A stretch of DNA of 40,881 nucleotides from Phoronis australis (lineage: Eukaryota; Animalia; Phoronida), in assembly GCA_002633005.1 (NCBI GenBank), contig NMRA01000258.1, forward strand, positions 549,709-590,589, given 5' to 3'. Both the position numbers and the translations under genes were made by a program. Positions 1-23,885 of the stretch are shown here, piece after piece; within the stretch, counting starts at the first letter, position 1, and each line of letters starts with the position of its first letter. The notes below the pieces were generated by a model, which was not told the origin of the DNA, ran no database searches, and saw nothing but the letters and a program-made list of their open reading frames with translations.

Positions 1-459
1 TTTCTTCCAGGATGGTGCCCTAGCTGTGGTACATTACTTAAGTACCGTTCAATGGCAATCATTAATTATTGTTTCAGGTTTCTTCCAGGATGGTGCCCTA
101 GCTGTGGTACAATACTCAAGTGCCGTTCAATGGCAATCATTAATTATTGTTTCAGGTTTCTTCCAGGATGATGCCACTGCTGTGGTACATTACTTAAGTA
201 CCGTTCAATGGCAATCAGTAATTATTGTTTCAGGTTTCTTCCAGGATGGTGCCCTAGCTGTGGTACATTACTTAAGTGCCGTTCAATTGCAATCATTAAT
301 TATTGTTTCAGGTTTCTTCCAGGATGGTGCCACTGCTGTGGTACATTACTTAAGTGCCGTTCAATGGCAATCATTAATTATTATTTCAGGTTTCTTCCAG
401 GATGGTGCCCTAGCTGTGGTACAATACTCAAGTGCCGTTCAATGGCAATCATTAATTAC
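1..459. repeat. 78-bp tandem repeat, ~5.9 copies visible, probably continuing off the left edge
   Basis: Unit tttcttccaggatggtgccctagctgtggtacattacttaagtaccgttcaatggcaatcattaattattgtttcagg restarts at 1, 79, 157, 235, 313 and 391 with few substitutions. ORFs 26..499 and 208..579 are its repetitive translations. Confidence 0.97.
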
Positions 460-841
460 TGTGCCGTCGTGCATCCAAGATCACCTGCTGGTGATTTGAT
501 ATTGGTCATCTATTCATTGTGTCTTTTTAGGCTGCGAAAGAAAGTCATTACCTCGCAAATACTAACAATGATGCGTTAGCCGTTGTATTCACTTGGCGCT
601 AACCCATTTGTTCCAACAGGCAAAATTCAACATTCAGTCGATGGATGAAGTTCAGTTGTTTTCTTGAATTTCTATTTCAGTATACAGCTCCGTGGTAACT
701 AAGTGGGGGTGAAGGGTGATCCTGGTTAACACTTGTAAAATCGTCAATTTCATGATTCATGACGTGTCAGCTTTTGGAGCCCCACAGTTACATTTTTCAC
801 ACTCACTTTGACCTTGACAAATCATACCTCTTAAGAATTGA

Positions 842-2036
842 GAAATGCCATTTATGTTCGAAGTATGTCCCGAAAATGACAGGTGCATTGCAAGCTCCGT
901 TTCCAGAGATAACACAGAGACGGTATAGAGGCGAAATAACGATGACTGATAACGGTACAGAAATATGAGTGTAAAATAATAAGTAAACATGAAATAATAA
1001 TCTCTGGAAAGATGTGCAATAAAAAGTGCAGCAATCGGGTAAGAGGAACCACTAAAAAGATAGGGTGGGAGAGGGTGGGAGAGGGTGGGAAAAAGTGAAG
1101 AGAGATTAAACTCAAACGTAAGTGTTCCTGAAACAAAGGAATAACAGAAAGCATATAGTTACTGAGAACAAAGGTTAACCCTGAGACACGTGATAATCAT
1201 CAGCCTATAAGAGCCGGGAGCTGATCGAACTCATGGCACCGCATGCGAATTTACACAAACTATTAATGGACGAGACCAAAAGAAGGAAAAAGGGGTATAA
1301 GTGAGACGAGTACATATTCTGAAATAAATATATTTAATGAGTGAAATACCGTTTGTGTTCGAGTATGTCCTGAAAATGACAGGTGCATCGCAAGCTCCGT
1401 TTCCAGAGATAACTTGGAGACCGTATAGAGGCGAAATAACGATGACTGATAATGGTACAGAAATATGAGTGTAAAATAATAAGTAAACATGAAATAATAA
1501 TCTCTGGAAAGATGTGCAATAAAAAGTGCAGCAATCAGGTAAGAGGAACCACCATAAAGATAGGGTGGGAAAAAGTGAAGAGAGATTAAACTCAAACGTA
1601 AGTGCTGCTGAAGCAAAGGAATAACAGGAAACATAGTTACTGAGAACAAAGGTTAACCCTGAGACACGTGATAATCATCAGCCTATAAGAGCCGGGAGCT
1701 GACCAAACTCATGGCAAACGACAGAAACGAACCAATTAAGTGAGGCTGGAAATGAAATGTACTAGTGCGTCATATGTACAAAAGGACCACATGCGAATCT
1801 ACACAAACGATTAATGGACCAGACCGAAAGAAGGAAAAAAGGGGCATAAGTGAGACGAGTACATATTCTGAAATAAATAAATTTAACAAGTGAAATACCA
1901 TTTGTGTTCGAAGTAAATTGTCCCGAGAATGATAGGTGCGTCGCAAGCTCCGTTTCCAGAGATAAAAAGGAGACTATACAGGCGAATTAAAGGTCATTTA
2001 TTATGACTGATAATGTACAGAAATATGAGTGTAAAA
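842..2036 (+). repeat. ~500-550 bp tandem unit, two full copies plus a ~140 bp partial
   Basis: Marker tgttcgaagtatgtcccgaaaatgacaggtgc...gcaagctccgtttccagagataa recurs at ~855, ~1355 and ~1905. The downstream blocks ggtaagaggaaccac and ctgagaacaaaggttaaccctgagacacgtgataatcatca are shared. Confidence 0.93.
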
Positions 2037-3363
2037 TATGTCAAGAATCATGATTTTTAAATGTCCCGTTAAGTGCCACAAGCAGTAACCGGGACAGTTA
2101 CGATAATTGTAAACTTGTTTTTTTAATAATTTTTGTTTTTTTTTCTTTGTAGGTTCCTTTGGAGGCTACCGTGTGATAATAGTAGATGAAGAGGGGTCGT
2201 ATCAGCATTCTTGCTAATTTTGTAAAATTATCAATTTCATGATTTACAATAACTTTTAAGTTTCACAGATCATGGCACATTGTCATTCTTTCTCTTGTTG
2301 AACGTCAATTCTCTTTCACAAGTGCCACAATATTTTGGCCTATCCTTCACCCCCCTCTATGAACTGAATTCTGACGTTCGTTCCCATTCATGCATCTAAG
2401 ATCACTGTTTACTGACCATGCATCCTGCTTCACATTGCTGCCTGTCATTTACCATCACTCAATAGGATGCTCCCGGATTACCCACAACGCTGCAACATCT
2501 GCCAAGCAGTCTCTAATTTGTATTGATTACATTAATTGAGTTCAACCTTCCAATGACACTTAAAGTTTTACAGAACTCAGCTGTGCTGTGGCTGCAACCC
2601 CCAATGACAGAAAGTTGGAGCGACTTGAGAATTATTTGTGAATACGATATGGTTTCTGACATTTCTAAACCACGGCCAATGTAGGAACGCATTTTCGTAC
2701 CTCGGGGACAAAGGAGATCTCTATCCAGGCCCATCTTATTGACCGCATGCACGTCCTGAGGAGCATCGGTGTATCCTGCCTACAATCAGGTACTTAAGCT
2801 ACATAGTGACTTTGCATATGCACCAAGGAAGGGCACAGGCCTGTCAGTAACCTGCAGTTCAGATGGACATCGAGTATACTTTACACTAGCAATTTTACCT
2901 TCGCTTATAAATACCTAAATTCAGCTAAATGGCAGTGCCCACATTTTCTAAATCTTCACTGTTATAACTCATGTGAGGCTTACCACCCATGTGTCATTTA
3001 CATAAGTCAAGGTTACGTAAAGTTTTTGATGTCAGTGGAACAAGAATCCCGGCACATAAAAGTTTAGCTTCCAAAATGTATGTGTCTTAGCAGTTCATCA
3101 TTTGGCGGTAGCAAAGACCATCGTATCGGTATGCCTTTCCAATTATTTGTGCTGGAAAAGGCACATTAAAGAAGCTATGAAATGGTTATCTAATTTTGTA
3201 TGAAAATCATAGAGTAGTACTTGAGTGCAAGTGTGGTCCAGATATTCCCTTAACGCCCACTTGCTGAGTTTTGAATGTCGCAATTAAGTGCCCTAGCTGT
3301 GCACTAATGTTAATGTGGATGAGTAAAGCAGTTGTAGGTTTGGATCTTTCTGACTATGGCCGC

Positions 3364-3497
3364 CTGTCATTGACCATCAGCCAATCTACTGCATGCATTG
3401 AGGAACATCATTGGATCTATGCTTGCCGTCATCGACTAGTCGCATATCAAGTATATCAAGAAATGGCACCTGGCTGCCATCAACCGTGCATAGTACA
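3364..3497 (+). repeat. Outer diverged inverted-repeat arm (pairs with 22117-22250)
   Basis: 134 bp align without gaps to the reverse complement of 22117-22250 at ~80% identity by eye (ctgtcatYgaccatcagccaa...gtgcaYagtaca). Confidence 0.85.
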
Positions 3498-3715
3498 GAT
3501 GAAGTGAAGTTTAAGGAGATCTTTTACACGTGCAGTTCTTACTCAGAAAGGTTCACAGGCAAGTTCAGCCAAATGCTAACCATCCAAATTTACAAATCTT
3601 TGCATTTAAATGCTCTCACTTTGCCTATTGCCCTCATTTAATTGTTACAATTGCATGAGACTTTCCTAAAAATGTCAGTGTCTAAGTGAGTGCCAGTTTG
3701 CCAAAAAATTTAGCA

Positions 3716-6700
3716 TACATGTATACTGATGCGTTAGTGAGTTTCAAGATCGTGAGCTAAATTATTACGTGTCATTGTTGTATAAAAAGAACTCGAGATG
3801 TTCAGGGATACCAATCCCTAGTTTCAGCCATTCACTCTAATGGAGAATGGGATTGCAGATGGCTCTACCTACCAACAACCTGACGTCCAGCATCAGCGCC
3901 TATGATTGACATGTATTGATGGGCAAGGTAATATGAGTGTGCGTGGGCATGTTTAAGATGAGTGTGACAATGTGTTGAGGAGGGCAACGGCCAATGTAAG
4001 TGTGTGCATAATGATTTTCATGTTCGAAGCATGTCCCGAAAATGATAGGTGCGTCGCAAGCTCCGTTTCCAGAGATAAGAAGGAAATGTGTATTAGGAGA
4101 AACAATGGTCATTTATTATGAGTGATAACGGTACAGAAGTACGAGTGATGAATAATAAGTAAACATAAAATAATAATTTGGAAAGATAAGCAATAAAAAG
4201 CGTAGCACTCAGGTAAGAGGAACCACCATAAAAGGGGCGTGGTAGTGAGTGGGAAAAAATGAAGATAGATTTTTTTCAAGCATAAGAGCTGCTAAAGCAA
4301 GGAATGACAGGAAACATATGTTTACTGAGAACAAAGGTTAACCCTAAGACACGTGATAATCATCAATCAATAGGAGCCAGGAGCAGCTGACCAAGGCACG
4401 TGACAGAAACAAAACAATAGTGAGGCTGGTAATGAAATGTCCTACTACGTCGTGTGAAAAAAGGACCCAACGCAAATCTACTCAAATGATTAGTGGACGA
4501 GTTCGAATGAAAAAAGAGAGTGGTATAAGCAAGACTAGTCCATATTCTCACATAAATATAATTAACGAGTGAAATACCATTTATGTTTGAAGTATGTTCC
4601 AAAAATGATAGGTGCGTCCCAAGCTCCGTTTCCAGAGATAAAAAGGAGAGGCATATAAGATGAACAAAGGCCATTTATTATGAGTGATAAGGGTACAGAA
4701 ATATGAGTGTTATATTTTTTGCATGAGGCTGAGGGTAATTGGAATGTTGAGCAGTAAAGTGTGAATTATGAGGAGAGTCTCTCGCGTGTCCCTGTTTTAG
4801 TAAAAAACCAGATAAACTCCCGTGAAAAGGGTAAAACTTTCCTGTCAAGTTTTTCACAGAAGGATGTCAATCAAGTAAAACTAGTAAAGTCTTCCCCCAT
4901 GTCGAGTTTTCTTCACAGAGTATAAGTTTATTCTAGTAGAGATTATCGCCATTGCTTCTAACTTGAAGAATCAGTTGGGCATTAAATTCAGACGTGCTAA
5001 CTGGGTTTAATCTTGCCTGGTGGGCTGATGACAGTCATTGGTTAAAGAATTTGTAACATGTGACGAATTAATGGTGCAATGGTATGAAAGTGACGAATCT
5101 GTGAAATGCTATCACTTAGTGAAACTGTTGAGTGACAAAGCTAAATGCGAAACATAAATGAACCGAGACCACATGAAAATAAATGAACCAATGAATAAAA
5201 CACGAGTTAAGGACAAAAAACCTACCAAATGGTACAAATCAAATGAAACTATGAAATGTATAAAATTCATAGACTAATGTAATCGGAAACTTAAATGAAT
5301 GCGTAAAATATCACAAGGCCTATAGGGTGTGACGAAGCAAAATAAATTTGAAAAATGAGAAGGTAACACATAAAGACATGTGTATGCTGGTATAAACCAA
5401 TTGAAAAAAGCATGAACCTTCAAAATGTTACATCTAAAAAAACTGGTTGAATGTGACGAATAAAATGGGAGAAGTAATTGAATCCACAGAATGTGATAAT
5501 TTATGAGTGATTGAAATATCAATCAGTGAAATGCGACACAAAGAAACGTGTGGTGGCCCAGATTTAACACAACTGATGAATCCTTAAAATGGTATGGCTA
5601 AATGAAGCCATTAAGTGCAATGAAAGGAAATGTGATGGCAGTCTTCAATTGCCTTACATTGAAGATGATCCACACATCAAGGATCTGCCACCCACTTCCT
5701 AAATGTCTGCTCATGAACGGTGGCGGGTGGATATCAACCACTGCATGCTTTAAGGATTGCCATCTTGTCTCTAAACATTGGTTATCTGCATCTCATTGTG
5801 TTGCATTGGCAATTTGCATTGAGGGATGTCACTTGAAGGAGCAAGAATCAACAGCATCTCCCATCCACCCGATGCTGTACATTGATGCATGCTATCAATC
5901 ATATGTATGTTTACCACTCACACATGTAGGTCAATACTAAACAACATCGTGGATTGCCTTTTTGCAAACCACTTCCAAATTGTTGCCTAACCATCGATTG
6001 TTTGCGTATCGGCTGTCTAACTAACAAGCATCATCCACCGTGGAGATTCGCAACCATCTGCACTGTGCCCACTATTATACAGATGCCTAATATAAACCAC
6101 ATATGTAACAAACAAGACATGAACGCATCAGAGGAGTCCAGGATCAGTGTACGGAAGAGTTATGTATGTGCAACGAGTGAATGAAACTAAAATTTCATGA
6201 ATTCATGAATCTCCAAAATGAGTTGAATGAACAAATCTATGAGCAGTAATCAATAACCATCATTGAGTTGTGGTAATCTGGGGAAACGAGTAGAGTTTAC
6301 AGTTACTTTATGTGACATCAAATGGTGAATCCTTTCGTCAGATACTGTCAAATTACAGAATTCATTGTTATCACTGACAAATAATATTGTGTGTTGCATG
6401 TGTGAGATAAGCAGATTGTGCTTCTTTGTTGAATTGTGCCAGAAAAAATCGTATAACAAGCTGGTGCAACAAAATAGGGACTTTAGCATTACTTGTCAGA
6501 GTGATCTTAATACGTCCAAAGAATATACTGAATTTTGAGCGAAGTAATGCATTACGAACTGCACCAAGTTAATGGAGTCACGTCAAATGGAATAATTGAA
6601 TGAATCTGTAGAATGTCATCAAATGAGCAGAAGAATAAATGAACTATAAAATACTAAACATAAGTCAACTCAAAAAATGTTAATGAATATGCATCTGATC

Positions 6701-9700
6701 GATAAATAAGCATTGATTTCGAGTGGTAAAGTAACCATGAAATGCAGTGAATGAATGGAGTCTTGAAGTACGACAAGTGAATGAAACTGAAATTCCATGA
6801 AATACTGAGTTTTCAAGTGCAGTAAGAAATTGATCCCTGTGTTAAATGTGCCTATCAAAGGATTTATATAATGATGAAATTGGAAGATGAGAATGTTATA
6901 GCTGGAGCCATGAAATGCGATGAATTGAAACCATTAAAATGAGGAATAATTGCTTTAAGCAAACCAAGGAATTCAGGATTCGTTGAAGAGAACATTAATG
7001 CTACAACAATGTTTCCCGAAGTAAAAATCGCTTAAACATATCGCAATCAACAAGCTGGTGTAGCATAATGACAGAACGTATACATTGCGAGGAAGCAAAT
7101 TGGTAAATATCAGGTGAACATAAATATTGCAGTAAACAATGTACCCATGAAATACGAGTTAATAGAAAAGCAGTATGTGAGGTTAACAAAGTCCCAGTGT
7201 GGTACTCGTTCAAGAAACATCACGAATACCAAAAGTAAATGGAGATCATGTGTAAATTCTGAAAAGTGAATGAGTCCATTAAAAAGGCTAAATGTAGCCA
7301 AAGATATGCAGCTTGAGCATATCAAAGGGGTGATTTAACTTGTGTACACCATTGCATATCAGAATGTATGGAAATTTGAATGGTAAAATGTATCATATAT
7401 TGAAGAAATAGTGCATCAAATTAGTGGAGTCCCATGAAGTATCGCAATATCTGGAGAAATGGTGTTATCTCCAAAATATCAGAAATCAACAATAAAATGC
7501 TATAAATCAGTTAACCCTTAAAATGCAAAAACCAAAGACCCTATGAAGTATCATGAGTTAATGTCAGGGTAATCATAGTCCTACAGTGCTGCTAGTCAAT
7601 GGTGTCTCGTATATGCAAAAGGTTAATGGAAATAATATAAGGGAAAACTGACTGTACCCATCAAATGCAAGAAGATATTGAATTCTGGAGTGAACAAAAT
7701 CATGAAAAGTTATGTATTAATAGAGCTGGAATATGTTAACCAGAAAGGAAATGTACAAAGGGTTAGAAAATTGAAATGAAAAATGTATTAAATAAACAGA
7801 GGTGTAAAGATTTGCTAAACAAGTGAAAAAGGAAGGTAGGGGTGGTGAATGAGCAGGAGACAACAAATTCTATAGGTGGCTGACTTTGAATTGAGCCAAA
7901 GGGAACATGTTTATCAAACATGGCTATCAAAACTATAAGATTTCTTTACAACTATTGTATTCTTAAAAGTAACTTGTACCCAGCTTTTGCTAAATCTAAA
8001 GTTCATTCACCATCCTGAGGCAAAGGGCAATGCAGCATTTCTTCTTTTTTAATTCTTATCATTCACTACATGGAGAAGTGACCTACTAGAATTTTCTTGG
8101 GTTTACAATTAATTTATGCTGCACCAAGTGGTGGTTCCTTTTTCACAAATTTTAAAATTATGGAATTCATTGTTGTCACTGACAATTAACGTTGTGTCTC
8201 CAATATGTGAGGAAAACAACTTGTTTTTGTTGAATTGTGCCAAACACCATTGATTGAACAACAAAATGGGTGACTTGATTTGTGTACTGAACTGCTTATA
8301 AGAGTGATTTTAAAACCCCAAAGATTGCAGTGAAATTAGAATAGAGCAATTTATCACAAATTGAACAAATAAGTACATGGAATTAGTGGAGTCCTGAAAA
8401 ATGGGACAATAGAATGAGTCTGTAGAATGTCATTCAAGGAACATCAAAATAAAAGACCGGTAAAATACTAACAATAAGTGAATTCTCGATGTTTGATGGA
8501 TTGAGGATCTTTCATGCAATGAAGTGGTTAGAAAAGCCATGAAATGCATCACGTAAATTTGGTTTTGAAGTACGACAAATAATTGACATTGTGAAATTCA
8601 ATGAATTAATGAATCTTTAAACACAGCAATAAATTAATCCCCGTGTAAACAACAGCTATCAAAGGAATCTTTACATAATGTAATTGGAAACCGCAAATGT
8701 TAGGACTGGAGTATTGAAGTGTGATGAATTGACAAATTATTGAAAGGTGATGAGTAATTTCTCTTGGGAAAACCAATGCATTTTAATTTTAATACTTAAA
8801 AGGATTCACGGAACAGAATAAATTAATGGTTCAGTAATATCATGAATTAATAAGCCCCGAAAATATCACAATAAAAAACTGGTGTACCGTAACGACAGAA
8901 CTCATAAAGTAAATATTTCCATGGAGTCGGAGGGACCAAAAGGCAAAAAAATAAGTGAAGCTATCAAATGCAAAAATACCGTATCCATGAAATATGACTT
9001 ATTTATCAAACGTGATACTAGTTCAAGAGATCATGTTGTCTGGGCAGCACAAAGAAGTGATTTGATTTGTGTACACCATGGATTATCAGAATGCTCTTCA
9101 CACGCCCAAGGAATGTAGAAATACTTGAATGGTAGAAGGCATCAGGCATTGAAGAAAACAATTCATCAAATTTCTGGAGCACTGTGCAATTAAATGCGTT
9201 ATGAAATAAACAGAGAAATAAATAAGCTGTAAAATGTAAAAAAGAAATTAACTCCTGGAAGTTGGCGAATTAAAAAATCCGTAATTCGTATTCTGTCATT
9301 GATAAAGAAAATCAGTGGCTAGTGAATAAAATTGCAAAATTTGTTTGAATTAAGGAATCTTCAAAATATGTTAAAAGAATAAATCAATCAGCAGTAATCT
9401 AATAATCCATGTGTAGAATGCAACTTCAAGGGAATGTATTCATTTATTTATGTAATTGGAAGTTTAGAATGTTATAACTGGAGTCATGAAATGTGGTGAA
9501 TTAACAAACCATGTAAACGTGAAAAATTATTGGTTCTGTGAAAAGCAATGGATTCATGCAACAGAGCAAATTACAGGAAGGTAAAATAATATATGATGAA
9601 ATAATGAATAAAAAAACAAAAATCATAATAAAACGGGTGTAGAGTGATGACAGAACCTGCAAAATAAACAAAGGCATTGATTGCAAAGAAGAAAAATGCT

Positions 9701-10617
9701 AAAAATAAATGAGCCTATAAAACACGAAAACCAATGAGCCCCTGAAGTATTATGAGTTGATGATATGGTTATGAGTCCTACAGTGTTGTTTTTCAAACGT
9801 GTCACGCCAATGCAAATGGTCAATGGAAAAAAGAATAGGGACAACTGATGGAATCCATCAAATGCATTAAAATTATTGAATTCTGAAATTTTTTGGAATC
9901 GATAAGTTCACGAGAATATGTTACAGAGCAATGAAATTAAAATCGAAAGGGTAATAAATAGAGATATGGCAATTTGTTTAACAAGTGAAAAAGAAAGGTA
10001 GGGATGGTGAATTAAAAGGGGACAACAAATTGAATAGCTGGCTGAATTTAATTTCAGCCAAGTGAACATGTTGATCAAACATGGTTACTAAAACCTTAGC
10101 CTTCTTTACTATAGTATTCTTTAAAGTGACATTCGCAGCTCTGGCTAAAACTGAAATTCATTCACCATCCTGAGGCATAAGGGCAATGCAGCATTTTTTC
10201 TTTTTCAATGTTCATCATTGAGCAACAATGTTCTGCTAGCGTTTGGCTGGTTTTACGATTTTTGTGCTGCATCTAGTGGTATTTCCTTTTTCACAAATTG
10301 TAAAATTATGGAATTCCATGCTATCACTGAACAATTAGTGTTGTGTCTGCAAAATGTGAGGAAAGCGACTTATGCTTCTTCATTGAATTGGGCCAAACAC
10401 CATTGTATAACACGCTGAAACAACAAAATGGGCGACACCTTCGCTTATCAGAATGGAGTAGTGTATCATGGAATGAACTAAAGAGTGCCTTGATTGATGA
10501 GTCTTGAGTGCCATTAAATCAATATCAATATAAAAGACCTGTAAAAGACTAGGAATAAGTGAACTCCAGAAATTTGATGCATTGATGATATGTTATGAAT
10601 AGTTCAAGAAATCCCCC
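3716..10617 (+). repeat. Left arm of giant inverted repeat (~6.9 kb)
   Basis: Colinear reverse-complement match to 11848-19998. Mirrored ORF translations confirm it: 10218..10418(+) vs 12062..12262(-), 7110..7325(-) vs 16516..16794(+), 6670..6858(-) vs 16980..17168(+), 5274..5522(-) vs 18283..18567(+), 3900..4112(-) vs 19608..19814(+). Confidence 0.97.
4016..4710 (+). repeat. Further copy of the ~550 bp unit (one full plus one partial) inside the left arm
   Basis: Same marker as 842-2036, at ~4020 and ~4585. Confidence 0.9.
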
Positions 10618-11865
10618 CTTTTTGTTTCCCACCGTTTCTGTTTTCCCCGTCTTTTTTGTGTATCCGCCCTTTTTATTTTTCCCACGCTTTTTGTTTTCCC
10701 GCCCTTTTGTTTTTCCTGCCCTTTGTTTTTCTGCCTTTTTTGTTTTCCCACCTTTTTGTATTCCTCATATTTTGTTTTACTGCCCTTTTTGTTTCCCATC
10801 CTTTTTGCTTTCCCCGTCCTTTTTGTTTTCCCGCCCTTTTTGTTTTCCCGCCCTTTTTGTTTGGCCGCCATTTTTGTTTTCCCGCCTTTTTGTTTTCCTC
10901 CTTTTACTTTGTTTTCCTGCCGTTTTTGTTTGCTCCCCTCTTTATTTCCCGCCCTTTTTGCTTGCTCCCCACTTTGTTTCCTGCCCTTTTTGCTTGCTCC
11001 CCTTTGTTTCCCGCCCATTTTGTTTTCCCGCCTTTTTGTTTTCGCCGTCTTTTTTGTTTTCCCGCCTTTTTTCTTTTCCCGCCTTTTTTCTTTTCCCGCC
11101 CTTTTTGTTGTGCCGCCATTTTTGATTTCCCGCCCTTTTTGGACTCGTCTGATGCGTTCATGTCTCGTTTATTACATGTATGTTTTCCGGCTTTTTTGTT
11201 TTCCCGCCCTTTTTTGACTCCTCTGATGCGTTCATGTCTCGTTTATTACATGTATATTTTCCCGCCCTTTGTGTTTTGCCGCCCTTTTTGTTTCCCACAT
11301 CCTTTTTGTTTTCCCGCCCTTTTTGTTTTGCTGTCTTTTTTGTTTTCCCGCCCTTTTTGTTTTCCCGCCCTTTTTGTTTTCCCGCCCTTTTTGCTTTCTC
11401 CCTTATTTGTTTCCCGCCCTTTTTGTTTTCCCGCCTTTTGCTTTACTGCCCTTTTTGTTTGCCCTCTTTATTTTACCCGCTTTTGGTTTTCCTCATTTTT
11501 TTGTTTTACTGCCCTTTTTGTTTGCCCCCCTTTGTGTTTCCCCGTCTTTTTTGTGTTCCCGCTTTTTGTTTTCCCGTGTTTTTTGAAAAAAAATGGTAAA
11601 ACATTAAAAGGGGGTAAAACAAAAAGGCAGAATAAAAAAGGCGGGAAAACAAAAAGGGCGGGGAAAACAAAAAGCGAGAAAACAATAAAATGCGGGAAAA
11701 ACAAAACAGGCAACTCCAGTTATACATGACAAATATTGCATTTATTTCATGCAGTTTTCTGTACATGTCAAACAATCATTACTGTAACATCTCCATTTAT
11801 TTATCGCATTTCTGGTTTTTCGCATGATATCCATAAACCTTTTGTGAGGGGGATTTCTTGAACTA
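10600..11865. mobile_element. Putative non-autonomous TIR element (18-bp TIR TAGTTCAAGAAATCCCCC) forming the palindrome axis
   Basis: tagttcaagaaatccccc at 10600-10617 and gggggatttcttgaacta at 11848-11865. Similarity of the arm to its paralogous module (~8490-8520) fades by ~10599, so the 18 bp appear to belong to the insert. A TSD cannot be tested because the flanks are inverted copies of each other. Confidence 0.5.
10619..11710. repeat. 17-18 bp minisatellite (TTTTTGTTTTCCCGCCC)n, orientation flipping at ~11583
   Basis: T-rich units from 10619 to 11580, then reverse-complement units (aaaaggcgggaaaacaaaa) at ~11610-11710. This explains all the Phe/Pro- and Lys/Gly-rich ORFs at 10593-11775. 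Confidence 0.95.
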
Positions 11866-14800
11866 TTCATAACATATCATCAATGTAGTTCACTTATTCT
11901 TAGTGTTTTATAGGTCTTTTATATTGATATTGAGTTAATGACAGTACAGACTCATTTAGTTCTTTCATTTCATGCGAGTATATCAATCAAGGCACTCTTT
12001 AGTTCATTCCATGATACACTACTCCATTCTGATAAGCGAAGGTGTCACCCATTTTGTTGTTTCAGCGTGTTATACAATGGTGTTTGGCCCAATTCAATGA
12101 AGAAACACAAGTCGCTTTCCTCACATTTTGCAGACACAACACTAATTGTTCAGTGATAGCATGGAATTCCATAATTTTACAATTTGTGAAAAAGGAAATA
12201 CCACTAGATGCAGCACAAAAATCGTAAAACCAGCCAAACGCTAACAGAACATTGTTGCTCAATGATGAACATTGAAAAAGAAAAAATGCTGCATTGCCCT
12301 TATGCCTCAGGATGGTGAATGAATTTCAGTTTTAGCCAGAGTAAAGAAGGCTAAGGTTTTAGTAACCACGTTTGATCAACATGTTCACTCGGGCTGAATT
12401 TATATACAGCCAGCTATTCAATTTGTTGTCCCCTGTTCATTCACCATCCCTAACTTCCCTTTTCACTTGTTAAACAAATTGTCATATCTCTGTTTATTTT
12501 TGTTAAAAATTCTACCGGTGTTTATTCATTAGTTCTCATGAGCTCGTTGATTCCAGAAATTTTCAGAATTCAATAATTTTAATGCATTTGATGGATTACA
12601 TTACAGGTTTGAAAAACAACACTGTAGCACTCTGATAACTGTCACATCAATTCATAATACTTCAGGGGCCCATTGGTTTATAGGCTCATTTATTTTTAGT
12701 GTTTTGCTTCTTTGCAATCAGCGCCTTTGTTTATTTTGCAGGCTCTGTCATCACCGGTTTTGTTATTTATTTTTTATTTTTTTATTTGTTATTTCATCAT
12801 ATATTATTAGACCTTCCTTTAATTTGCTGTTGCATGAATCCATTGCTTTTCACAGAACCAATTATTTTTCACCTTTACATGGTTTGTTAATTCACCACAT
12901 TTCATGACTCCAGTTATAACAATTTCAACTTCCAATTACATCAATAAATTAATATATTCCCTTGAAGTTGCATTCTGCACATGGATTAATAGATTATTGC
13001 TGATAGATTTATTCTTTTAACATATTTTGAAGATTCATTAATTCAAACAAATTTTGAAATTTCATTGAATGGCCACTGATTTTCTTTATCAATGACGGAA
13101 TACAAATTACGAATTTTTTAATTGGCCAACTTCCAGGAGTTAATTTCTTTTTTACATTTTACAGCTTATGTATTTCTCTGTTTATTTCATAATACATTCA
13201 ATTGCACAGGACTCCATTCAAATATTTCAACATTATTTGGGGGTAGTAGTACCACGTTTGGTAATTAAGTCATATTTCATGGATACGGTGTTTTTGTATT
13301 TGATAGCTTCACATATTTTTCACCTTTTGGTCCCTTAGACTCCATGGAAATATTTACGAGTTTGGGGGCTTATTAATTCATAAGACATTACTGAACCATT
13401 AATTTATTCTGTTCATCACATTTCACGACTCCAAGTCATAACATTTGCGGTTTCCAATTACATTATATAAACATTCCTTTGATAGCTGTGTTTTACACAG
13501 GGATTAATTTATTGCTGTATTTGAAGAATCATTAATTCATTGAATTTCACAATTTCATCTATTTGTTGTTCTTCAAAACCAAATTTATGTGATGCATCTC
13601 ATGGGTTTTTTAACCACTTCATTGCATGAAAGATAATCAATCCATCAAACTTCGAGAATTCAATTAGTGCTAGTATTTTACCGGTTTTTTATTTTGAACT
13701 TCATTGAATGACATTCCAAAGACTCATTCCATTGTCCCATTTTTCAGGACTCCACTAATTCCATGCACTTATTTGTTCAATTTTTGATAAATTACTCGTC
13801 CATTCTATTTTCACTGCAATCTGTGCGGGTATTAAAATCACCATTATAAGCAGTGGGGTACACAAATCAAGTCACCCAATTTGTTGCTCGATCAATGCTG
13901 TTTGTCACAATTCAACAAAAAACAAGTTGCTTTCCTCACATATTGGAGACTTAATGTTAATTGTCAGTGATAACAGTGAATTTCATAATTTTAGAATTTG
14001 TGAAAAAGGAACCACCACTTGTTGCAGCACAAATTAATTGTAAAGCCAAGTAAATTCTAACAGGTCACTTCTCCCTGTAGTGAATGCTGCATTGCCCTTT
14101 GCCTCAGGATGGTGAATGAACTTTAGATTTAGCAAGAGCTGGGTACAAGTTACTTTTAAGAATACAATAGTTGTAAAGAAATCTCATAGTTTTGATAGCA
14201 CCCCTACCTTCCTTTTCTCTTGTTTAGCAAATCTTTACATCTCTGTTTATTTAATACATTTTTCATTTCAATTTTCAAACCCTTTGTACATTTCCTTTCT
14301 GGTTAACATACTCCAGCTCTATTAATGCATAACTGTTTATGAATTTGTTAATTCCAGAATTCAATATCTACTTGCAGCTGATGGGTACAGTCAGTTTTCC
14401 CTGATGTTATATTCATTAACCTTTGCGTATGTGGGACACGATTGACTAGCAGCACTGAAGGACTTTGATTACCCTGACAAAAACTCATGATACTTCATAA
14501 GGCCTATGGTTTTTGCATTTTACAGTTAACTTCTTTGTAGCATTTCATTGTTGATGTGTGATAACTTGGAGATACATCATTTCTCCAAATATTATTGCTA
14601 TATGGGACTCCATTAATTTGATGCACTATTTCTTCCAATATATGATGCATTTTATCATTCAAATTTCCAGTCATTCTGATAACCAATGGTGTACACAAGT
14701 CAAGTCACCCATTTGAGATGCTCAAGCTACATATCTTCGGCTACATTTAGCCTTTTTAATGGGCTTATTCAATTTTCAGAATTTACACATGATCTCCATT

Positions 14801-17800
14801 TACCTTTGGTATTTGTGATGTTTCTTGAAGAGTACCACACTGGGACTTTGTTAACCCCACATACTGCTTTTCTATTAACTCGTATTTCATGGGTCCATTG
14901 TTTACTGCAATATTTAGGTTCACTAATATTTACCAATTTCTTTCCTCGCAATGTATACGTTCTGTCATTATGCTACAGCAGCTTGTTGATTGCGACATGT
15001 TTAAGCGATTTTTAATTTTGGGAACATTGTTGTACCATTAATGTTCTCTTCCAGGAATCCTGAATTCCTTGGTTTGCTTAAAGCACTTATTCATCATTTT
15101 AATGGTTTCAATTCATCGCATTTCATGGCTCCAGGTATAACATTCTCAGCTTTCACTTTCATCATTATAAAAATCCTTTGATATGCACATTTTACACAGG
15201 GATCAATTTGTCCCTGCACTTGAAGATTCATTAATTCATTGAATTTCACAATTTCATCTATTTGTCGTACTTTAAAGTCAAATTGATGTGATGCATTTCA
15301 TGAGTTTTCTAACCACTTCATTGCATGAAAGATCCTCAATCCATCAAACATCGAGAATTCACTTATTGTTAGTATTTTACCGGTCTTTTATTTTGATGTT
15401 CCTTGAATGACATTCTACAGACTCATTATATTGTCCCATTTTTCAGGACTCCACTAATTCCATGTACTTATTTGTTCAATTTGTGATAAATTACTCTATT
15501 CTAATTTCACTGCAATCTTTGGGGGTATTAAAATCACTCTTATAAGCAGTTCGGTAAACAAATCAAGTCACCCATTTTGTTGTTCAATCAATGGTGTTAG
15601 GCACAATTCAACAAAAACAAGTTGTTTTCCTCACATATTGGAGACACAACGTTAATTGTCAGTGACAACAATGAATTCCATAATTTTAAAATTTGTGAAA
15701 AAGGAACCACCACTTGGTGCAGCATAAATTAATTGTAAACCCAAGAAAATTCTAGCAGGTCACTTCTCCATGTAGTGAATGATAAGAATTAAAAAAGAAA
15801 AAATGCTGCATTGCCCTTTGCCTCAGGATGGTGAATGAACTTTAGATTTAGCAAAAGCTGGGTACAAGTTACTTTTAAGAATACAATAGTTGTTAAGAAA
15901 TCTTATAGTTTTGATAGCCATGTTTGATAAACATGTTCCCTTTGGCTCAATTCAAAGTCAGCCACCTATAGAATTTGTTGTCTCCTGCTCATTCACCACC
16001 CCTACCTTCCTTTTTCACTTGTTTAGCAAATCTTTACATCTCTGTTTATTTAATACATTTTTCATTTCAATTTTCTAACCCTTTGTACATTTCCTTTCTG
16101 GTTAACATGTTCCAGCTCTATTAATACATAACTTTTCATGATTTTGTGCACTCCAGAATTCAACATCTTCTTGCATTTGATGGGTACAGTCAGTTTTCCC
16201 TGATATTATTTCCATTAACCTTTTGCATATACGGGACACGATTGACTAGCAGCACTGTAGGACTCTGATTACCCTGACATTAACTCATGATACTTCATAG
16301 GGTCTTTGGTTTTTGCATTTTAAGGGTCAACTGATTTATAGCATTTTATTGTTGATTTCTGATATTTTGGAGATAACACCATTTCTGCATATATTGCGAT
16401 ACTTCATGGGACTCCACTAATTTGATGCACTATTGCTTCAATATATGATGCATTTTACCATTCAAATTTCCATACATTCTGATAAGCAATGGTGTACACA
16501 AGTTAAGTCACCCCTTTGATATGCTCAAGTTGCATATCTTTGGCTACATTTAGCCTTTTTAATGGACTCATTCACATTTCAGAATTTACACATGATCTCC
16601 ATTTACTTTTGGTATTTGTGATGTTTCTTGAACGAGTACCACACTGGGACTTTGTTAACCTCACATACTGCTTTTCTATTAACTCGTATTTCATGGGTAC
16701 ATTGTTTACTGCAATATTTATGTTCACCTGTTATTTACCAATTTGCTTCCTCGCAATGTATACTTTCTGTCATTATGCTACACCAGCTTGTTGATTGCGA
16801 TATGTTTAGGCGATTTTTAATTCGGGAAACATTGTTGTACCATTGTTCTCTTCAACGAATCCTGAATTCCTTGGTTTGCTTAAAGCAATTATTCTTCATT
16901 TTAATGGTTTCAATTCATCGCATTTCATGGCTCCAGCTATAACATTCTCATCTTCCAATTCCATCATTATATAAATCCTTTGATAGGTACATTTAACACA
17001 GGGATCAATTTCTTACTGCACTTGAAAACTCACTATTTCATGGAATTTCAGTTTCATTCACTTGTCGTACTTCAAGACTCCATTCATTCACTGCATTTCA
17101 TGGTTACTTTACCACTTGAAATCAATGCTTCTTTATCGATCAGATGCATATTCATTAACATTTTTTGAGTTGACTTATGTTTAGTATTTTATAGGTCATT
17201 TATTCTTCTGCTCATTTGATGACATTCTACGGATTCATTCAATTATTCCATTTGACGTGACTCCATTAACTTGGTGCAGTTCGTAATGCATTATTTCGCT
17301 CAAAATTCTCTACATTCTTTGGACGTATTAAGATCACTCTGACAAGTAGTACTCAAGTCCCTATTTTGATGCACCAGCTTGTTATACAATTTTTCTGGCA
17401 CAATTCAACCAAGAAGCACAAGCTGCTTATCTCACATGCAACACACAATATTACTTGTCAGTGGCAACAATGAATTCTGTAATTTGACAGAATCTGAAGA
17501 AAAGAGCCTCCATTTGATGTAGCAAAAATAACTGTAAACTCTACTTGTCTCACCAAATTACCACAACTGAATGATGGTTATTGATTTAATACTGCATATA
17601 TATTTGTTAATTCGGCTCATTTTGGAGATTCATGAATCCATGAAATTTTAGTTTTATTTACTCGTTGCACATACATATCACTTCTGAACACCGATCCTGG
17701 ACTCCTCTGATGCGTTCATGTCTCGTTTATTACATGTGTGGTTGTTATTAGGCATCTATGTAATAGCGGGCACAGTGCAGAAGGTTGCAAATCTCCACGT

Positions 17801-19998
17801 TGGATGATCCTTGTTGGTTGGACAGCCGATGCGTAAACAATCGATGGTTAGGCAACAATTTGGAAGTGGATTTGTAGATACAAAAAGGCAATCCACCTTG
17901 TCGTTTAGTATGGACCTACATGTGTGAGTGGTAAACATACATACGATTGATAGCATGCATCAATGTACAGCATTGGGTGGATGGGAGATGCTGTTGATGC
18001 TTGCTCCTTCAAGTGACATTCCTCAATTCAAATTGCCAATGCAACACTATGAGATGGAGACAACCAATGTTCAGAGACAAGATAGCAATCCTTGAAGCAT
18101 GCAGTGGTTGATATCCACCAGCCAGCGTTTATTAGCAAACATTTAGGAAGTGGGAGGCAGATATTTATCCTTAAATTGCGTGGTTGATCTTCAATGTAAG
18201 GCAGTTGATGACTGGCATCAAATTTTCTTTCATTGCTCTAAACGGCTTCATTTAGTCACAACAGTTTAAGGATTCATCAGTTTTGTTTAAGCTAGGCCAC
18301 CACAGGTTTCTTTGTGTCGCCTTTCACCAATTGATATTTCGTTCATTCATAAAATCTCAAATTCTGTGGATTCAGTTAGTTCTTCCATTTTATTCGTCAC
18401 ACTCAACCAGTTTGTTTAGATGTAATATTTTAAGGGTTCATGCTTTTTTCAATTGGTTTATACCAGCATGCACATGTCTTTATGTGTTACCCTCTTATTT
18501 TTCAAATTTATTTTGCTTCATCACTCCCTATAGGCGATATAGACGTGATATTTCACGCATTCATTAAAGTTTCTGATTACATTAGTCCATGAATTTTATT
18601 CATTTCATAGTATCATTTGAATTATACCATTTGGCAGGGTTTTTTGTCCAAAACTCACGTTTAATTGGTTCATTTATTTTCATGTGTTTTCGGTTCATTT
18701 ATGTTTCGTATTTATCTTTGTCACTCAACGGTTTCACTTAGTTATAGCATTTCACAGCTTCCTCACTTTCATACCATTGCACCATTAATTTGTCACATGT
18801 TACAAATTCATTAACCAATGAAAGAATTGCCAGTTAGCATGTCTGAATTTAATGCCCCAGTAATTCTTCAGATTAGGAGCAATGACGACAATCTCTACTC
18901 GAATAATATCCTCTGTGAATAAAACTCAACATTGGGGAAGACTACTCGTTTCACTTAAAACTCATATTTCTGTACCCTTATCACTCATAATAAATTACCT
19001 TTGTTTCTCTTATATACCTGTCCTTTTTATCTGTGGAAATGGAGCTTGGGACGCACCTTTTTATCTCTGGAGACGGAGCTTGGGATGCACCTTTTTATCT
19101 CTGGAAACGGAGCTCTGGGACGCACCTATCATTTTTGGATTATACTTCGAATATAAATGGTATTTCACTCATTAAATATACTTATGTGAGAATACGGACT
19201 CGTCTTGCTTATACCACCATTTTTTCTTCATTCGGACACATCCACTAATCCTTTGAATAGAGTTGCACACGACGCACTAGGACACTTTATTACCAGTCTC
19301 ACTATTGGTTCGTTTCTGTCATTTGCGGTTGTCAGTTGCTCCTGGCTCCTATTGACTGATGATTATCACGTGTCTCAGGCTTAACCTTTGTTCTCAGTAA
19401 TCATGTTTCCTGTCATTCTGGCTTTAGCAGCTCTTACGTTTGAGTAAAATATTTCTTCATTTTTCCCCACTCACTACCACGCTCCTTTTCTGGTGGTTCC
19501 TCTTACCTGAGTGCTACGCTTTTCATTGCTTATCTTTCCAGAGATTATTATTTTATGTTTAATTACTACTTAACACTATATTTCTGTATCGTTATCACGC
19601 ATAATAAATGACCTTTGTTTCTCCTATACACCTTTCCTTCTTCGGAAACGGAGCTTGCGACACACCTATCAGTTTCGGGACATGCTTCGTACATGAAAAT
19701 CATTATGCACACACTTACATTTTCCGTCGCCGTCCTCAGCACATGGTCACACTCATCCTAAACACGCCCATGCACACTCATATTACCTTGCCCATCGATC
19801 CATGTCAATCATAGCCACTGATGCTGGACGTCAGGTTGTTGATGGTAGGTAGAGCCATCTGCAATCTCATTTTCCACTAGAGTGAATGGCTGAAACTAGG
19901 GATTGGTATCCCTGAACACCTTTTTATACAACAATGACATGTAATAAATAAATTTAGCTCACGGTCTTTAAACTCACTAACACATCAGTATACACGTA
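11848..19998 (-). repeat. Right arm of giant inverted repeat (~8.1 kb, with an extra ~1.7 kb tandem module)
   Basis: Reverse complement of 3716-10617. Segments ~13520-15220 and ~15225-17020 both match left-arm ~6830-8620. Confidence 0.97.
18960..19697 (-). repeat. Inverted copy of the ~550 bp unit with a local 34-bp triplication (19022-19126)
   Basis: Reverse complement of 4016-4710. cctttttatctctggaaacggagcttgggacgca recurs at 19022, 19056 and 19090. Confidence 0.9.
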
Positions 19999-20374
19999 GG
20001 TGCATGTCTGCATCTGGCAATCACCTATTAACTACAAGTTACATTACCTATGAGGCTGACTTGCAAGTTAAGTCATGCATTGACGCCTAAACAGAATTTT
20101 TGAGAAATCTGAGATGGATTAAATTTCCTTCTGCCAGTTCCCACATCATTTTTTTCACTCAACCATAGTGCACAACCATCAATGCACAAACAGTGATGCG
20201 GATATTTCTTGATACATGGACGTTAAACATGTGAGCAGATCACGACATATACAGCAGAAGTACTGAGACTGAATCAGCAGGAAGACCTGATCACTTAGAG
20301 CTAATTTGGCCATCTTATTGGTGAATTCTCGATCAATTCATCTGATCTCTTTGCTGTGCATTATGCAATCCCTA

Positions 20375-21905
20375 AATCAACTATGCAGGCACCAAAGAAT
20401 GTCCATACATCAAAGCCTTCCATCTAATCTCCAAATAAAGACTGTTCGCACATCGACACCTGATATCAACTGTTCAAATGTCAACCATTCACACATCGAG
20501 GAACATCCATGCATTGAGGTTCACCATCTAACACCTACATACCGATCGTTCACGTATCAAGGAGCATCCAGGTATCGAGGATTGTCATCTTTTGTCCACA
20601 AACCAACTGTTTGCGCATCAATGGCTGCCACCAACTGTTCGCATACCAATCTTCCAAACACCAAGAAGCATCCTAGCATCAAGGATTGTCACCTGCTGTA
20701 TGCATGTCACCCGTCCACACATAGTGGAACATCCCACATCCAAGATTACCATCAAATGTTCGCATATCGACAGCCCACACACCGTGGAACGTCCATTCAT
20801 TCAAGGATTGGCGACTACTATCCATATGTCAACCTTCCCCATATCGAGAAATGTCAATGCATCGAGGATCGACATCTTCCGTACACATATCAACCACCCT
20901 CACATCAAGAAACGTCCACTCATCAAGGTCCACCATCTACCGCTACAAACCAACTGTTCGCACAACAGTATCTACCATCGGCCATCCGCATAGCAATCTT
21001 CCACACACCATGGAACATTCACACAACTAGAATCGTCAACTACCATTCACCTACCGATCATGTGTCCACGGATGCCTGCCATCCACCGTATGCATATTGA
21101 GTGTCCCCCCACCGGGACAGTCATTATGCATACAGTCCATTGACCATATGCATATTGACTATCCCGGTGGGGGGATAGTCAAGATGCATACGATCAAGGG
21201 CAAGCATCAACGGAAACATGGTCAGCGGGAGGATGGGAGATGAAGATCCCAGATGTGTGAACATTCCATGATGTGAAGAAGATCGAAATGCTAATGGCTG
21301 ATGGCAGACATTGTTGCGTGAATAGATGGTTTGTGGACAGTCGAAGGTCATCCTCAATGAGTGGACGTTTCTCTATGTGTAGATGGTTGACATGTGTACA
21401 GAAGATGATGATCCTCGATACATGGACATTTCTCGATATGTGGATCGTCGACATATAGACAGTAGAGGGCAATCCTCAAATGTATGGAAGTTCCACAATG
21501 AGTGGGTAGCCGATACGCGAACAGTCGATGGTAATCCTGGATATGTGGACATTCCTCTATGTATGGATGGTTGACATGCAAACGGCAGATGACAATCCTT
21601 GATGTGGGAATGCAACTCAATGTGTGGACGATCGATATGTGAACAGCCGATGGAAGACATTGATGCGTGAACAGTCAGCTTGTGAACAGAAGATGCCAAT
21701 CTTCGATATCTGGATGCTCCTGTGATACGTGAATGTTCGATATGCAGACAGTAGATGGCGATCTTCAATGTTTGGACATTCCTCGGAAAGTGGATGGTTG
21801 ATATACGAACAGTTGACCCAAGGCACCAACACACGGACAGTCGATATTTAGAAATTAGACGGCCCTCTTCAATGTCTGGACATTCGCTGGTACGTGGATA
21901 GTTGA
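20375..21905. repeat. ~1.5 kb diverged palindrome made of ~60-bp tandem units, axis ~21140
   Basis: 20375-21132 matches the reverse complement of 21147-21905 at roughly 70-80%. Units such as tgttcgcatatcaaccatccacacatcgaggaacgtccatgcatcaaggattgccatct recur about every 60 bp. Confidence 0.9.
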
Positions 21906-22116
21906 TATGCGGACAGCACAGTACACACCACAGTGATCAACCAGAACGACCTGGAATTCCCCGACATGATGACAAAATTAGCGGTTATGACCTTGAATTC
22001 CTTGCCCATCTGCCAAACTACTTCGGGTGTGTTCATGAACTGCAAAATGGATTTAAATGAAATAGCAAGTTACCGAAAAGTGAACAAAATGTGTATGTTT
22101 TGAAAACTAATTTTTT

Positions 22117-22250
22117 TGTACTGTGCACAGTTGACGGCGGGCAGGTGGCATTCCTTGATGTACTTGAGATTCGAGTAGTTGATGACAGCAAGAGTAGATG
22201 CCACGACGTTCATTAATGCATGCAGTATGTTGGCTGATGGTCGATGACAG
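22117..22250 (-). repeat. Outer diverged inverted-repeat arm (pairs with 3364-3497)
   Basis: Ungapped reverse-complement match to 3364-3497, ~80% by eye. Confidence 0.85.
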
Positions 22251-22382
22251 TATTGCATCCCATCCTAAGAACTTCTCTCTATTCCTGAAATAGAAATGTA
22301 TACCTTAAAGTCATGCCTTAAGTCAGCAATTAAGCAATTTTGGTCAAAGTCTTAATTTTCAAAAAGCCAATGCTCTCAGCCA

Positions 22383-23072
22383 ACAACTGTTACATTTTAT
22401 GTCATTGTTGCATTTTACCTTGGTAGGCCTCTCCTAAAATAAGCATTTTATGTAATTGTTACAGTTTACATGAATGCACATGTGAGAAATGTACCATTGT
22501 TACATTTATATAAGCGCAGTCATGCATTTCATGAGTTTTCTTGGTATTTACCACACGGAGGAAAATGGTTCACACACTTAACGGGCTCTTTCATGGATTG
22601 TTTGAATGAAATTCTGTCAAATAGGCCAGCTCGAATTTATACATGAGCACCTATGTGCCGGGTTTCCATTGTTTTTTAACAGATTCTTAGTAGAGTCAAA
22701 ACTGTACCCCATTCAGTTTCAACTCCTGACGACAGGAGTTTTCAAGGTTAGGTAACAATTATTGTGTTCATGCAATCTTTTGTTGGCCTTCACATGTAAT
22801 AAATTTTGGCTAATGCTTATCGCATTTCTTTGTCAAAAATGACCGCAGCCCGTTCCACGTAAAATTGTTGCGAGTACCCCGGCCGTGTTAGACACCACTT
22901 ATTTTGATTTTGGTCATTTACTTTGATACGATTTTGGTTTCGTAAAGTGTAATAATTACATGTTTCTTTTATGTACATTGCACATAAACTGTAATAATTA
23001 CATAAAATGTAACAACTTTAGGAGAGACCTAGCAATGTAAAATGTTGCAGTTTCGTCAAATGCAACAGTTGT
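22383..23072. mobile_element. Degenerate foldback/MITE-like element with ~125-bp inverted arms
   Basis: 22383-22507 (acaactgttacatttt...taggcctctcctaaa...cattttatgtaattgttacagttta) matches the reverse complement of ~22946-23072 (taaactgtaataattacataaaatg...tttaggagagaccta...aacagttgt). No TSD found. Confidence 0.6.
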
Positions 23073-23159: not shown

Positions 23160-23885
23160 TCAGGCAATGATATGTACAGCCACTTATTTGTTTAATTTCA
23201 TAAACATCCATCAAGAACTTGGTAGTGAAATAAATTTCTAATTCATTTTAAAGGTGTTATGAATAGAGGTTCTACTTCCAGTTTTCTACAGTATACATGC
23301 TTTTTGGCTGCAAAGAATGATAAGATTCAACAGTTCGTTCACTTGCTTTGACAGTTTTACCAAATATATAAGTTTGAAAATCTTAAGATATATGCACATT
23401 TTTGCATTAATGTAATATTCATTTATTGTTTCCCAAAAAGACTGAACAAAAGTGCAATCCCAAAATAAATGTTCCAAATTTCCAGTTTCATTCCTGTAAA
23501 AGGAACATCGGTCACTTGGAGAAGTACCAATTACCGTGAAAAAGTTATTAGTTACTAAAATTCTGTTTGCAACTCGTTTAACTTTGCGAAAGTCTGGCAG
23601 GCAATGCCATGTTGCATGACGCAAACTTGTGAGTTTTCGTCTAACATTTTTATCCTTTCACAAAAAATATCTCCGAACTCAAACATCTTAAGAACATTAA
23701 ACACAAAATTCCAGGACAATGTATCAAATGCTTTGCCAAAATCCACTATTGTTCCAAGACCCAAAAGTTCTCTTGAGTACGTAATATACAAAATGTCATA
23801 AAGAGTTCAGACAAATGTTTTCACCAATAAATTGACCAGATAAAAGTCCTGTCTGATCTGGGTGAATCAATTTTTCAAGAACTGT
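23160..23885 (-). pseudogene. Decayed, internally deleted 3' part of an L1/Tx1-type LINE ORF2
   Basis: Three frames give early RT motifs VLEKLIHPDQTGLLSGQFIGENI and DFGKAFDTLSWNFVFNVLKMFEFG. These are followed directly by the C-terminal zinc-finger region RILVTN...DRCSFYRNETGNLEHLFWDCTFVQSFW, so the YADD core is missing. Confidence 0.85.

What the first reader, a model, noticed from the sequence alone, without database searches (positions are those of the whole stretch)
11141..11253. Two 38-39 bp fragments of the right arm are embedded in the central minisatellite
Seen: 11216-11253 (gactcctctgatgcgttcatgtctcgtttattacatgt) is identical to 17700-17737, and 11141-11179 matches 17699-17737 with one mismatch. 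The left-arm counterpart (~6101-6139, reverse) differs at three positions, so the donor is the right-arm version ~6.5 kb away in the same orientation. Inference: a templated insertion (template switching or theta-mediated end joining) occurred after the arms diverged, then duplicated with its neighbouring units. It superficially resembles spacer capture into a repeat array.
Basis: partly seen in the sequence, partly recalled or inferred. Interest (0 to 1): 0.7.

Follow-up and report, generated by a model that had tools for sequence, protein, structure and literature searches.

The report
One-off DNA patch in a minisatellite
A 41-base piece of a large multi-copy repeat sits twice inside that repeat's central minisatellite and is seen in independent sequencing data; it is likely an ordinary DNA-repair patch that was later duplicated, not a sign of CRISPR-like capture.

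Summary
11216-11253 equals 17700-17737, 11141-11179 has one mismatch and the left arm has three. Short-read contigs cross the outer junctions and the stretch between the two copies, and reads from a second sample cross the right junction. The insert is real; so, with thinner support, is the duplication.

The donor and timing claims fail. The arms belong to a family of non-coding inverted-repeat structures of 30-46 kb. The 38-mer is the majority allele among 10 close copies on 5 scaffolds, and the left arm's three differences are its own later changes. A copy on another scaffold (C3896) matches exactly and runs on three bases further (ATG), where both local arms read GTG.

The insert sits at a unit boundary with TG at both ends and no visible target loss. 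This fits microhomology-guided template switching (gap filling), then unequal exchange within the array.

No donor-matched insert was found in 3 sibling 17-bp arrays (partly gapped) or 4 related 26-bp arrays. A similar patch lies in a sibling's arm. Verdict: a real but ordinary repair patch, not systematic capture.

The parts
11140..11182 (+). Insert copy 1: TG (11140-11141), the 38-mer (11142-11179), then ATG (11180-11182). It begins exactly at a minisatellite unit boundary and a full unit resumes at 11183.
   Evidence: contig across the left junction has C at 11147
11183..11215 (+). Two minisatellite units (33 bp) between the copies; with the 41-nt insert they give the 74-bp duplication period
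   Evidence: (period 74); X4 contig 11160-11222
11214..11256 (+). Insert copy 2: the 38-mer (11216-11253), then ATA. The assembly reads TT before it; contigs likely read TG (inferred).
   Evidence: (X1 contig 11226-11277 exact)
17698..17740 (+). Right-arm copy of the donor segment: TG, identical 38-mer, then GTG. A possible donor, not proven.
6098..6140 (-). Left-arm copy of the donor segment, with three changes derived in this arm and GTG after the 38-mer
10612..11576 (+). Central 17-bp minisatellite (TRF consensus TCCCGCCCTTTTTGTTT, 57 copies, 69% matches)
11460..11720 (.). Point near 11585 where the array flips orientation; predicted DNA hairpin about 330 bp from the inserts
   Evidence: -61.6 kcal/mol, z -6.3, 0 of 200 shuffles fold as well; searches show the same flip in siblings
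3716..10617 (+). Inner left arm of the giant inverted repeat, built from 1.7-1.8 kb subrepeats; the structure continues about 11 kb upstream of the window
11848..19998 (+). Inner right arm (83-91% identical to the left arm); weaker inverted matches continue to 32420

Best explanation
A 41-base segment of the arm of a giant inverted-repeat family sits twice in the element's central minisatellite, likely copied there once by microhomology-guided template switching during repair of a break and then likely duplicated with two repeat units by unequal exchange. Shown: the identity to family arms, the position at a unit boundary, TG before the segment in donor and array, ATG after copy 1 and in most family copies, the 74-bp period, and junction support in two samples. 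Inferred steps: (1) a break or stalled fork in the hairpin-forming array; (2) a 3' end ending in TG anneals to a family arm copy and extends about 41 nt; (3) it is released and re-anneals through the closing TG to the other end of the array, with no visible loss; (4) misaligned exchange or slippage doubles insert plus two units. The template was some copy of this family: a local arm in an earlier state, the right arm as it is now, or a copy elsewhere such as C3896. The data slightly favour a template that read ATG. The patch likely has no function.
For: Exact 38/38 match, chance about 1e-18. TG shared at the left junction by copy 1 and 9 of 10 family copies; after the 38-mer, A in 6, T in 8 and G in 9 of 10 copies. 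TG closes most array units, which explains the position at a unit boundary. Two or more bases of microhomology occur at 17% of random array-donor junctions, about 3% for both ends (my product of the two). ATGTTTTCC occurs 0 times and ATATTTTCC once in 3,217 insert-free array bases, so the AT is unlikely to come from the array. Junction and middle support in runs X1, X2, X4, X5. Strong predicted hairpin nearby. A 91-bp patch of the 78-bp satellite with 3-nt overlap sits at a rearrangement junction in a sibling's arm, C2545:469135-469225. Precedent: single-copy captures inside animal DNA transposons arise by gap filling, with median 2-bp microhomology, 57% within 15 kb and breakpoints skewed inward (PMC8277862, passages).
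Against: Two-base microhomology is weak evidence on its own, and copy 2 ends in ATA rather than ATG. The empty pre-insertion site cannot be identified because the sibling arrays do not align unit for unit in the middle, so 'no target loss' is not proven. The copies are near-identical over about 63 nt but the 11 nt between them differ from both flanks at 3 or more places, which simple slippage does not explain well. Support for the middle stretch is one contig at depth 5.7 in one run (X4); none was listed for X1, X2 or X3. The repair pathway and the donor are not determined.
Confidence: 0.8

Rival explanations
1. One reading: the present right arm, 6.5 kb away, was the template after the arms diverged. 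The A after the 38-mer is an untemplated base, a copying error or array-derived.
For: The right arm is one of only 2 of 10 copies with 38/38 identity. Nearby donors are favoured in gap filling (PMC8277862). An ATATTTTCC variant exists once, in the C2545 array.
Against: Both local arms have G at position 39; both inserts and 6 of 10 copies have A. C3896 matches through ATG. The left-arm differences are derived, so they do not single out the right arm.
Confidence: 0.3
2. Polymerase-theta end joining made the insert.
For: 2-nt microhomologies and an AT-rich template are typical of its templated inserts (PMC7165422, passages).
Against: In that paper inserts are 3-30 bp, single synthesis tracts rarely exceed 10 bp, templates lie typically within 30 bp, and distal templates make up under 0.1% of repair. 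Here one 41-nt tract comes from at least 5 kb away.
Confidence: 0.12
3. The single insert is real but the tandem duplication is an assembly artefact (two haplotypes or overlapping contig ends placed in tandem).
For: Three bases in the duplicated stretch (11125, 11147, likely 11215) differ from the contigs. No X1, X2 or X3 piece was listed across the middle.
Against: X4 has a contig from copy 1's end through the spacer into copy 2's start, and a separate 51-nt contig that begins where two upstream paths would meet.
Confidence: 0.1
4. The central array systematically captures short pieces of its own element, like spacers in a CRISPR array, for example to seed small-RNA silencing.
For: The insert sits exactly between units. 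The C414 array has a different non-unit stretch of about 70 bp.
Against: No non-unit run in the visible parts of C3712 and C2545, nor inside 4 parsed 26-bp arrays. The C414 stretch has no second match in the genome. The two inserts here are the same sequence. No integrase-like ORF was found. A similar patch occurs outside any central array.
Confidence: 0.03

Closest known systems
Single-copy Pack-TIRs made by transposition-independent gap filling in animals (Tan et al. 2021, PMC8277862; passages read)
   Same: A captured segment inside a TIR-like element, internal break position, about 2-bp microhomology, donor possibly within 15 kb, single locus
   Different: Here the segment is only 41 nt, comes from the element's own family rather than host DNA, lies in a minisatellite and was then duplicated. 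The host structure is not shown to be a transposon.
Class 2 templated sequence insertion polymorphisms (Onozawa and Aplan 2016, PMC5110952; abstract and first quarter of the text read)
   Same: A DNA patch from a distant site with repair-type junctions, no poly(A), inherited
   Different: The experimental inserts there were 73-414 bp from unrelated loci. Here it is 41 nt from a repeat family, and polymorphism is untested.
Polymerase-theta templated insertions, TINS (Carvajal-Garcia et al. 2020, PMC7165422; passages read)
   Same: Short microhomology, AT-rich template
   Different: TINS are 3-30 bp and locally templated; this is longer and templated from kilobases away
Foldback-type elements with long, internally repetitive inverted repeats, e.g. 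Galileo (PMC3573991; passages read) and Drosophila FB (recalled)
   Same: Long inverted arms with internal tandem subrepeats, dispersed non-coding copies, much rearrangement between copies
   Different: Arms here reach about 20 kb against at most about 1.3 kb in Galileo. No common terminus, target-site duplication or transposase was found.
CRISPR arrays (features recalled)
   Same: A unique sequence placed between repeat units
   Different: One sequence present twice, degenerate repeats without spacers elsewhere, self-derived, no cas genes, animal-type genome

Membership tests
Gap-filling / template-switch templated insertion | Insert matches a pre-existing template elsewhere in the genome | tested here: met
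   38/38 to the right arm and to C3896; majority allele of 10 copies
Gap-filling / template-switch templated insertion | Microhomology at one or both junctions | tested here: met
   TG at the left junction of copy 1; TG at its right junction if the donor read ATG; chance 0.17 per junction
Gap-filling / template-switch templated insertion | An empty (pre-insertion) site exists in homologous copies or alleles | tested here: inconclusive
   Visible parts of 3 sibling arrays lack the insert, but they have gaps and do not align unit for unit in the middle
Gap-filling / template-switch templated insertion | No retrotransposition marks (poly(A) tail, long target-site duplication) | tested here: met
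   Read from the sequence: no poly(A); only a 2-nt TG is repeated
Polymerase-theta TINS | Template within about 30 bp of the break and tract of at most about 30 bp | tested here: not met
   Nearest template about 5 kb away, tract 38-41 nt; criteria from PMC7165422
Polymerase-theta TINS | Dependence on POLQ | not testable with these tools
   Needs genetics
CRISPR-like spacer array | Many different spacers of like length, one between each pair of near-identical repeats | tested here: not met
   One sequence, twice, among about 65 degenerate units; 0 donor-matched inserts in 3 sibling 17-bp arrays and 4 parsed 26-bp arrays
CRISPR-like spacer array | Linked integrase (Cas1-like) genes | tested here: not met
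   ORF lists of the window and fetched loci show mostly repeat-derived frames. Of 3 proteins scanned against Pfam only the LINE reverse transcriptase hit. A few host-like ORFs in flanks were not scanned.
Foldback transposon (FB / Galileo type), for the host structure | Long inverted arms with internal tandem subrepeats, in dispersed copies | tested here: met
   31-46 kb inverted structures on C1756, C3763, C1136, C236, C158; 1.7-1.8 kb subrepeats here
Foldback transposon (FB / Galileo type), for the host structure | Defined common termini flanked by a target-site duplication | tested here: inconclusive
   22 outer ends compared: shared sequence stops at different points in different subgroups; no common terminus, so no target-site test was possible
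Foldback transposon (FB / Galileo type), for the host structure | A cognate transposase | tested here: inconclusive
   None recognised among ORFs of fetched loci; several centres are gaps and the genome was not searched for transposases

The most novel reading that the evidence does not exclude
The hairpin-forming minisatellite at the centre of this family of giant inverted repeats is a recurrent break site that preferentially patches itself with short pieces of the family's own arms at the TG linker, building a heritable record of self-sequence that could feed small-RNA control. The unassembled gaps in sibling arrays and the unexplained stretch in C414 leave this open.
Probability: 0.05. Interest if true: 0.65.

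Novelty: new member of a known kind. Interest (0 to 1): 0.15.

Why it matters
As it stands, little: it is one clean natural example of a germline template-switch patch in a repeat, and a caution that 'closest copy in the window' does not name a donor when the sequence belongs to a family. It would matter if many arrays of the family carried different arm-derived inserts at the same register, since that would be a self-sampling repeat array in an animal-type genome; the evidence here points against that. The unclassified family of 30-46 kb non-coding inverted repeats is probably more worth study than the insert.

Tried and rejected
Genome pattern searches for the 17-bp array found exact 32-mers only here (3 matches) and exact 21-mers only here and on C414 (6 matches), so they brought no new arrays; siblings came from flank searches. 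The C414 non-unit stretch has no second genomic match and nothing above 15 bp in 605 kb of fetched loci; it may be gap-closing noise. A scan of 10 element regions for isolated short matches gave 48 hits; apart from ours, three places were checked: one is a clear patch (C2545), two look like rearrangement junctions or subrepeats; the rest were not followed singly. One range parsed as an array (C236:174030-179050) was mostly non-array loop and is left out of the count; 5 further 26-bp arrays listed by TRF were not parsed. Search for a common terminus and target-site duplication failed. Rfam: 0 matches in 3000-23000. Pfam: no family for the C646 ORF or the 20291-21097 frame. Earlier findings: 0 near, 0 by words, 8 shown of 10 in the genome, none relevant. 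Paper searches listed no report of spacer-like capture into a eukaryotic minisatellite and none of such a giant foldback family; the library is limited and most hits were seen only as listings. No supplements were read.

Full report
Observation. The coordinates and identities are as stated. 11216-11253 equals 17700-17737, 11141-11179 differs from 17699-17737 only at 11147, and the left-arm copy at 6101-6138 has three mismatches; no other place in the window comes within 12 mismatches. About 1e-18 exact matches are expected by chance. The inserts lie in a 17-bp minisatellite at 10612-11576 and form a 74-bp period. Copy 1 starts exactly after the G that closes a unit, and a full unit resumes after ATG; two units separate the copies.

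Is it in real DNA? Five runs were listed: four contig sets of one sample holding 0.26-0.33 of the sampled words, and raw Hi-C reads of a second sample and study. On 11090-11310, an X2 contig spans 11091-11169 with T at 11125 and C at 11147, and an X1 contig spans 11226-11277 with no difference. On 11160-11240, an X4 contig runs 11160-11222 with one other letter, joining the end of copy 1, the spacer units and the start of copy 2; a second X4 contig covers 11193-11240. I infer that the unlisted other letter is G at 11215, because the same 79-nt X2 contig lies there with one difference. In X5, two reads, possibly mates, cover the insert's end and continue into a copy-2-type flank with a few changes, and depth 1 from 11217 to 11240 suggests one read across the left junction. 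None of the contigs has 31 letters on both sides of a junction, and no X1, X2 or X3 piece was listed across the middle. So the insert is well supported and occurs in two samples, the duplication is supported by one run, and the mismatch at 11147 is an error or allele.

The host structure. The window is the end of scaffold C1756 of a 498-Mb genome. The arms are 83-91% identical, built from 1.7-1.8 kb subrepeats, and weaker inverted matches extend to C1756:538342-582128, about 44 kb. Related inverted structures of 31-46 kb lie on C3763, C1136, C236 and C158. C3712, C2545 and C414 share the same 17-bp centre, each with an assembly gap; more distant members carry a 26-bp array. The only recognised protein is a LINE reverse transcriptase at 23799-25550. 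Across 22 outer ends no common terminus emerged. It looks like a foldback element but is not shown to be one.

The donor. The 38-mer occurs in 10 close arm copies on 5 scaffolds with 0-6 mismatches, and in 5 distant ones with 8-9. The 10 differ by 9.5% on average over about 840 bp. Copy 2 carries the majority base at all 38 positions. The left arm's three differences are found in 1, 2 and 1 of 10 copies, so they arose on the left-arm line, and the right arm simply keeps the common state. They cannot name the donor or date the event. At the next base both inserts have A, as do 6 of 10 copies, while both local arms have G. C3896 is 38/38 and continues ATG like copy 1. The array rarely supplies this: ATGTTTTCC 0 times and ATATTTTCC once in 3,217 bases. 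A template reading ATG is therefore slightly favoured, either a copy elsewhere or a local arm in an older state. The present right arm remains possible if one base was added or changed.

Mechanism (inferred). With an ATG donor, copy 1 reads TG, 39 nt, TG, and both TGs match the linker that ends most units. Two or more shared bases occur at 17% of random junctions between this array and donor region. The array reverses orientation near 11585 and folds into a predicted hairpin (z -6.3), a plausible site of stalling or breakage. A 3' end ending in TG would invade or fold back onto a family arm, copy about 41 nt and return by the second TG. Misaligned exchange then doubled 41 nt plus two units. 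This matches gap filling inside animal DNA transposons, with median 2-bp microhomology, nearby donors and internal breakpoints (PMC8277862, passages), and class 2 templated insertion polymorphisms (PMC5110952, first part). It fits polymerase-theta inserts less well, since those are mostly 3-30 bp and local (PMC7165422, passages). Against neatness: copy 2 ends in ATA, the empty site cannot be aligned, and the 11 nt between the shared blocks differ from both flanks.

Systematic capture. In four 17-bp arrays (3,628 known bases; 2,257 N inside the ranges, plus a 1,423-N gap beside C414's), non-unit runs occur only here and in C414. The C414 stretch of about 70 bp has no second match in the genome. 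Four parsed 26-bp arrays (C1136, C3466, C158, C236) hold no internal non-unit run of 16 bp or more. A scan of 10 element regions found no other arm-derived piece in a central array, but did find a 91-bp piece of the 78-bp satellite at a rearrangement junction in an arm of C2545. Patching is thus a general habit of this unstable family, not a property of the array. Gaps leave a small opening for the capture idea.

Verdict. This is a real, inherited, one-off templated insertion with a later duplication: a new example of a known kind, interest 0.15.

Noticed in passing
window 3716-32420 and upstream (G000:C1756:538342-582128); C3763:886581-932717; C1136:24517-66430; C236:157657-202666; C158:727016-757688: An unclassified family of 31-46 kb non-coding inverted-repeat structures with kilobase subrepeats and a central minisatellite. 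One outer module gave 157 candidates in the genome. No common terminus or transposase was found.
   Followed up: partly
window 10612-11706; C1136:42305-44948; C3466:54929-55496; C158:742412-742966: Subfamilies have different central arrays: a 17-bp unit containing TTTTCCCGCC, which resembles an E2F site, and a 26-bp unit containing CCAATCAG, which resembles a CCAAT box. Both motif names are recalled, not tested.
   Followed up: no
G000:C414:9787-9860 (L015): A non-unit stretch of about 70 bp in the sibling 17-bp array with no second match in the genome; a real insert or gap-closing noise
   Followed up: partly
G000:C2545:469135-469225 (L018): A 91-bp piece of the 78-bp satellite as filler at a junction between two distant arm modules, with a 3-nt overlap on the left
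   Followed up: yes
window 20300-21982: A nested 1.7-kb self-inverted element (75% identity) also present on C3763, C158, C3712, C414, C236 and C1136; its 269-codon frame has no Pfam hit
   Followed up: partly
window 23799-25550 (minus strand): A 584-codon LINE reverse transcriptase fragment (RVT_1, E 8.8e-25) next to a 673-N gap, inside the outer right arm
   Followed up: partly
window 1046-5991 against G000:C3712:159874-164821: The left arm is 94% identical to a copy on another scaffold, closer than to its own right arm (91%), suggesting exchange or duplication between elements
   Followed up: no
window 1-462: A 78-bp tandem repeat that belongs to the family; also on C2545 and C3896
   Followed up: partly
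G000:C646:505400-506563 (L044:400-1563): A 388-codon open frame beside a family copy, with no Pfam match
   Followed up: partly
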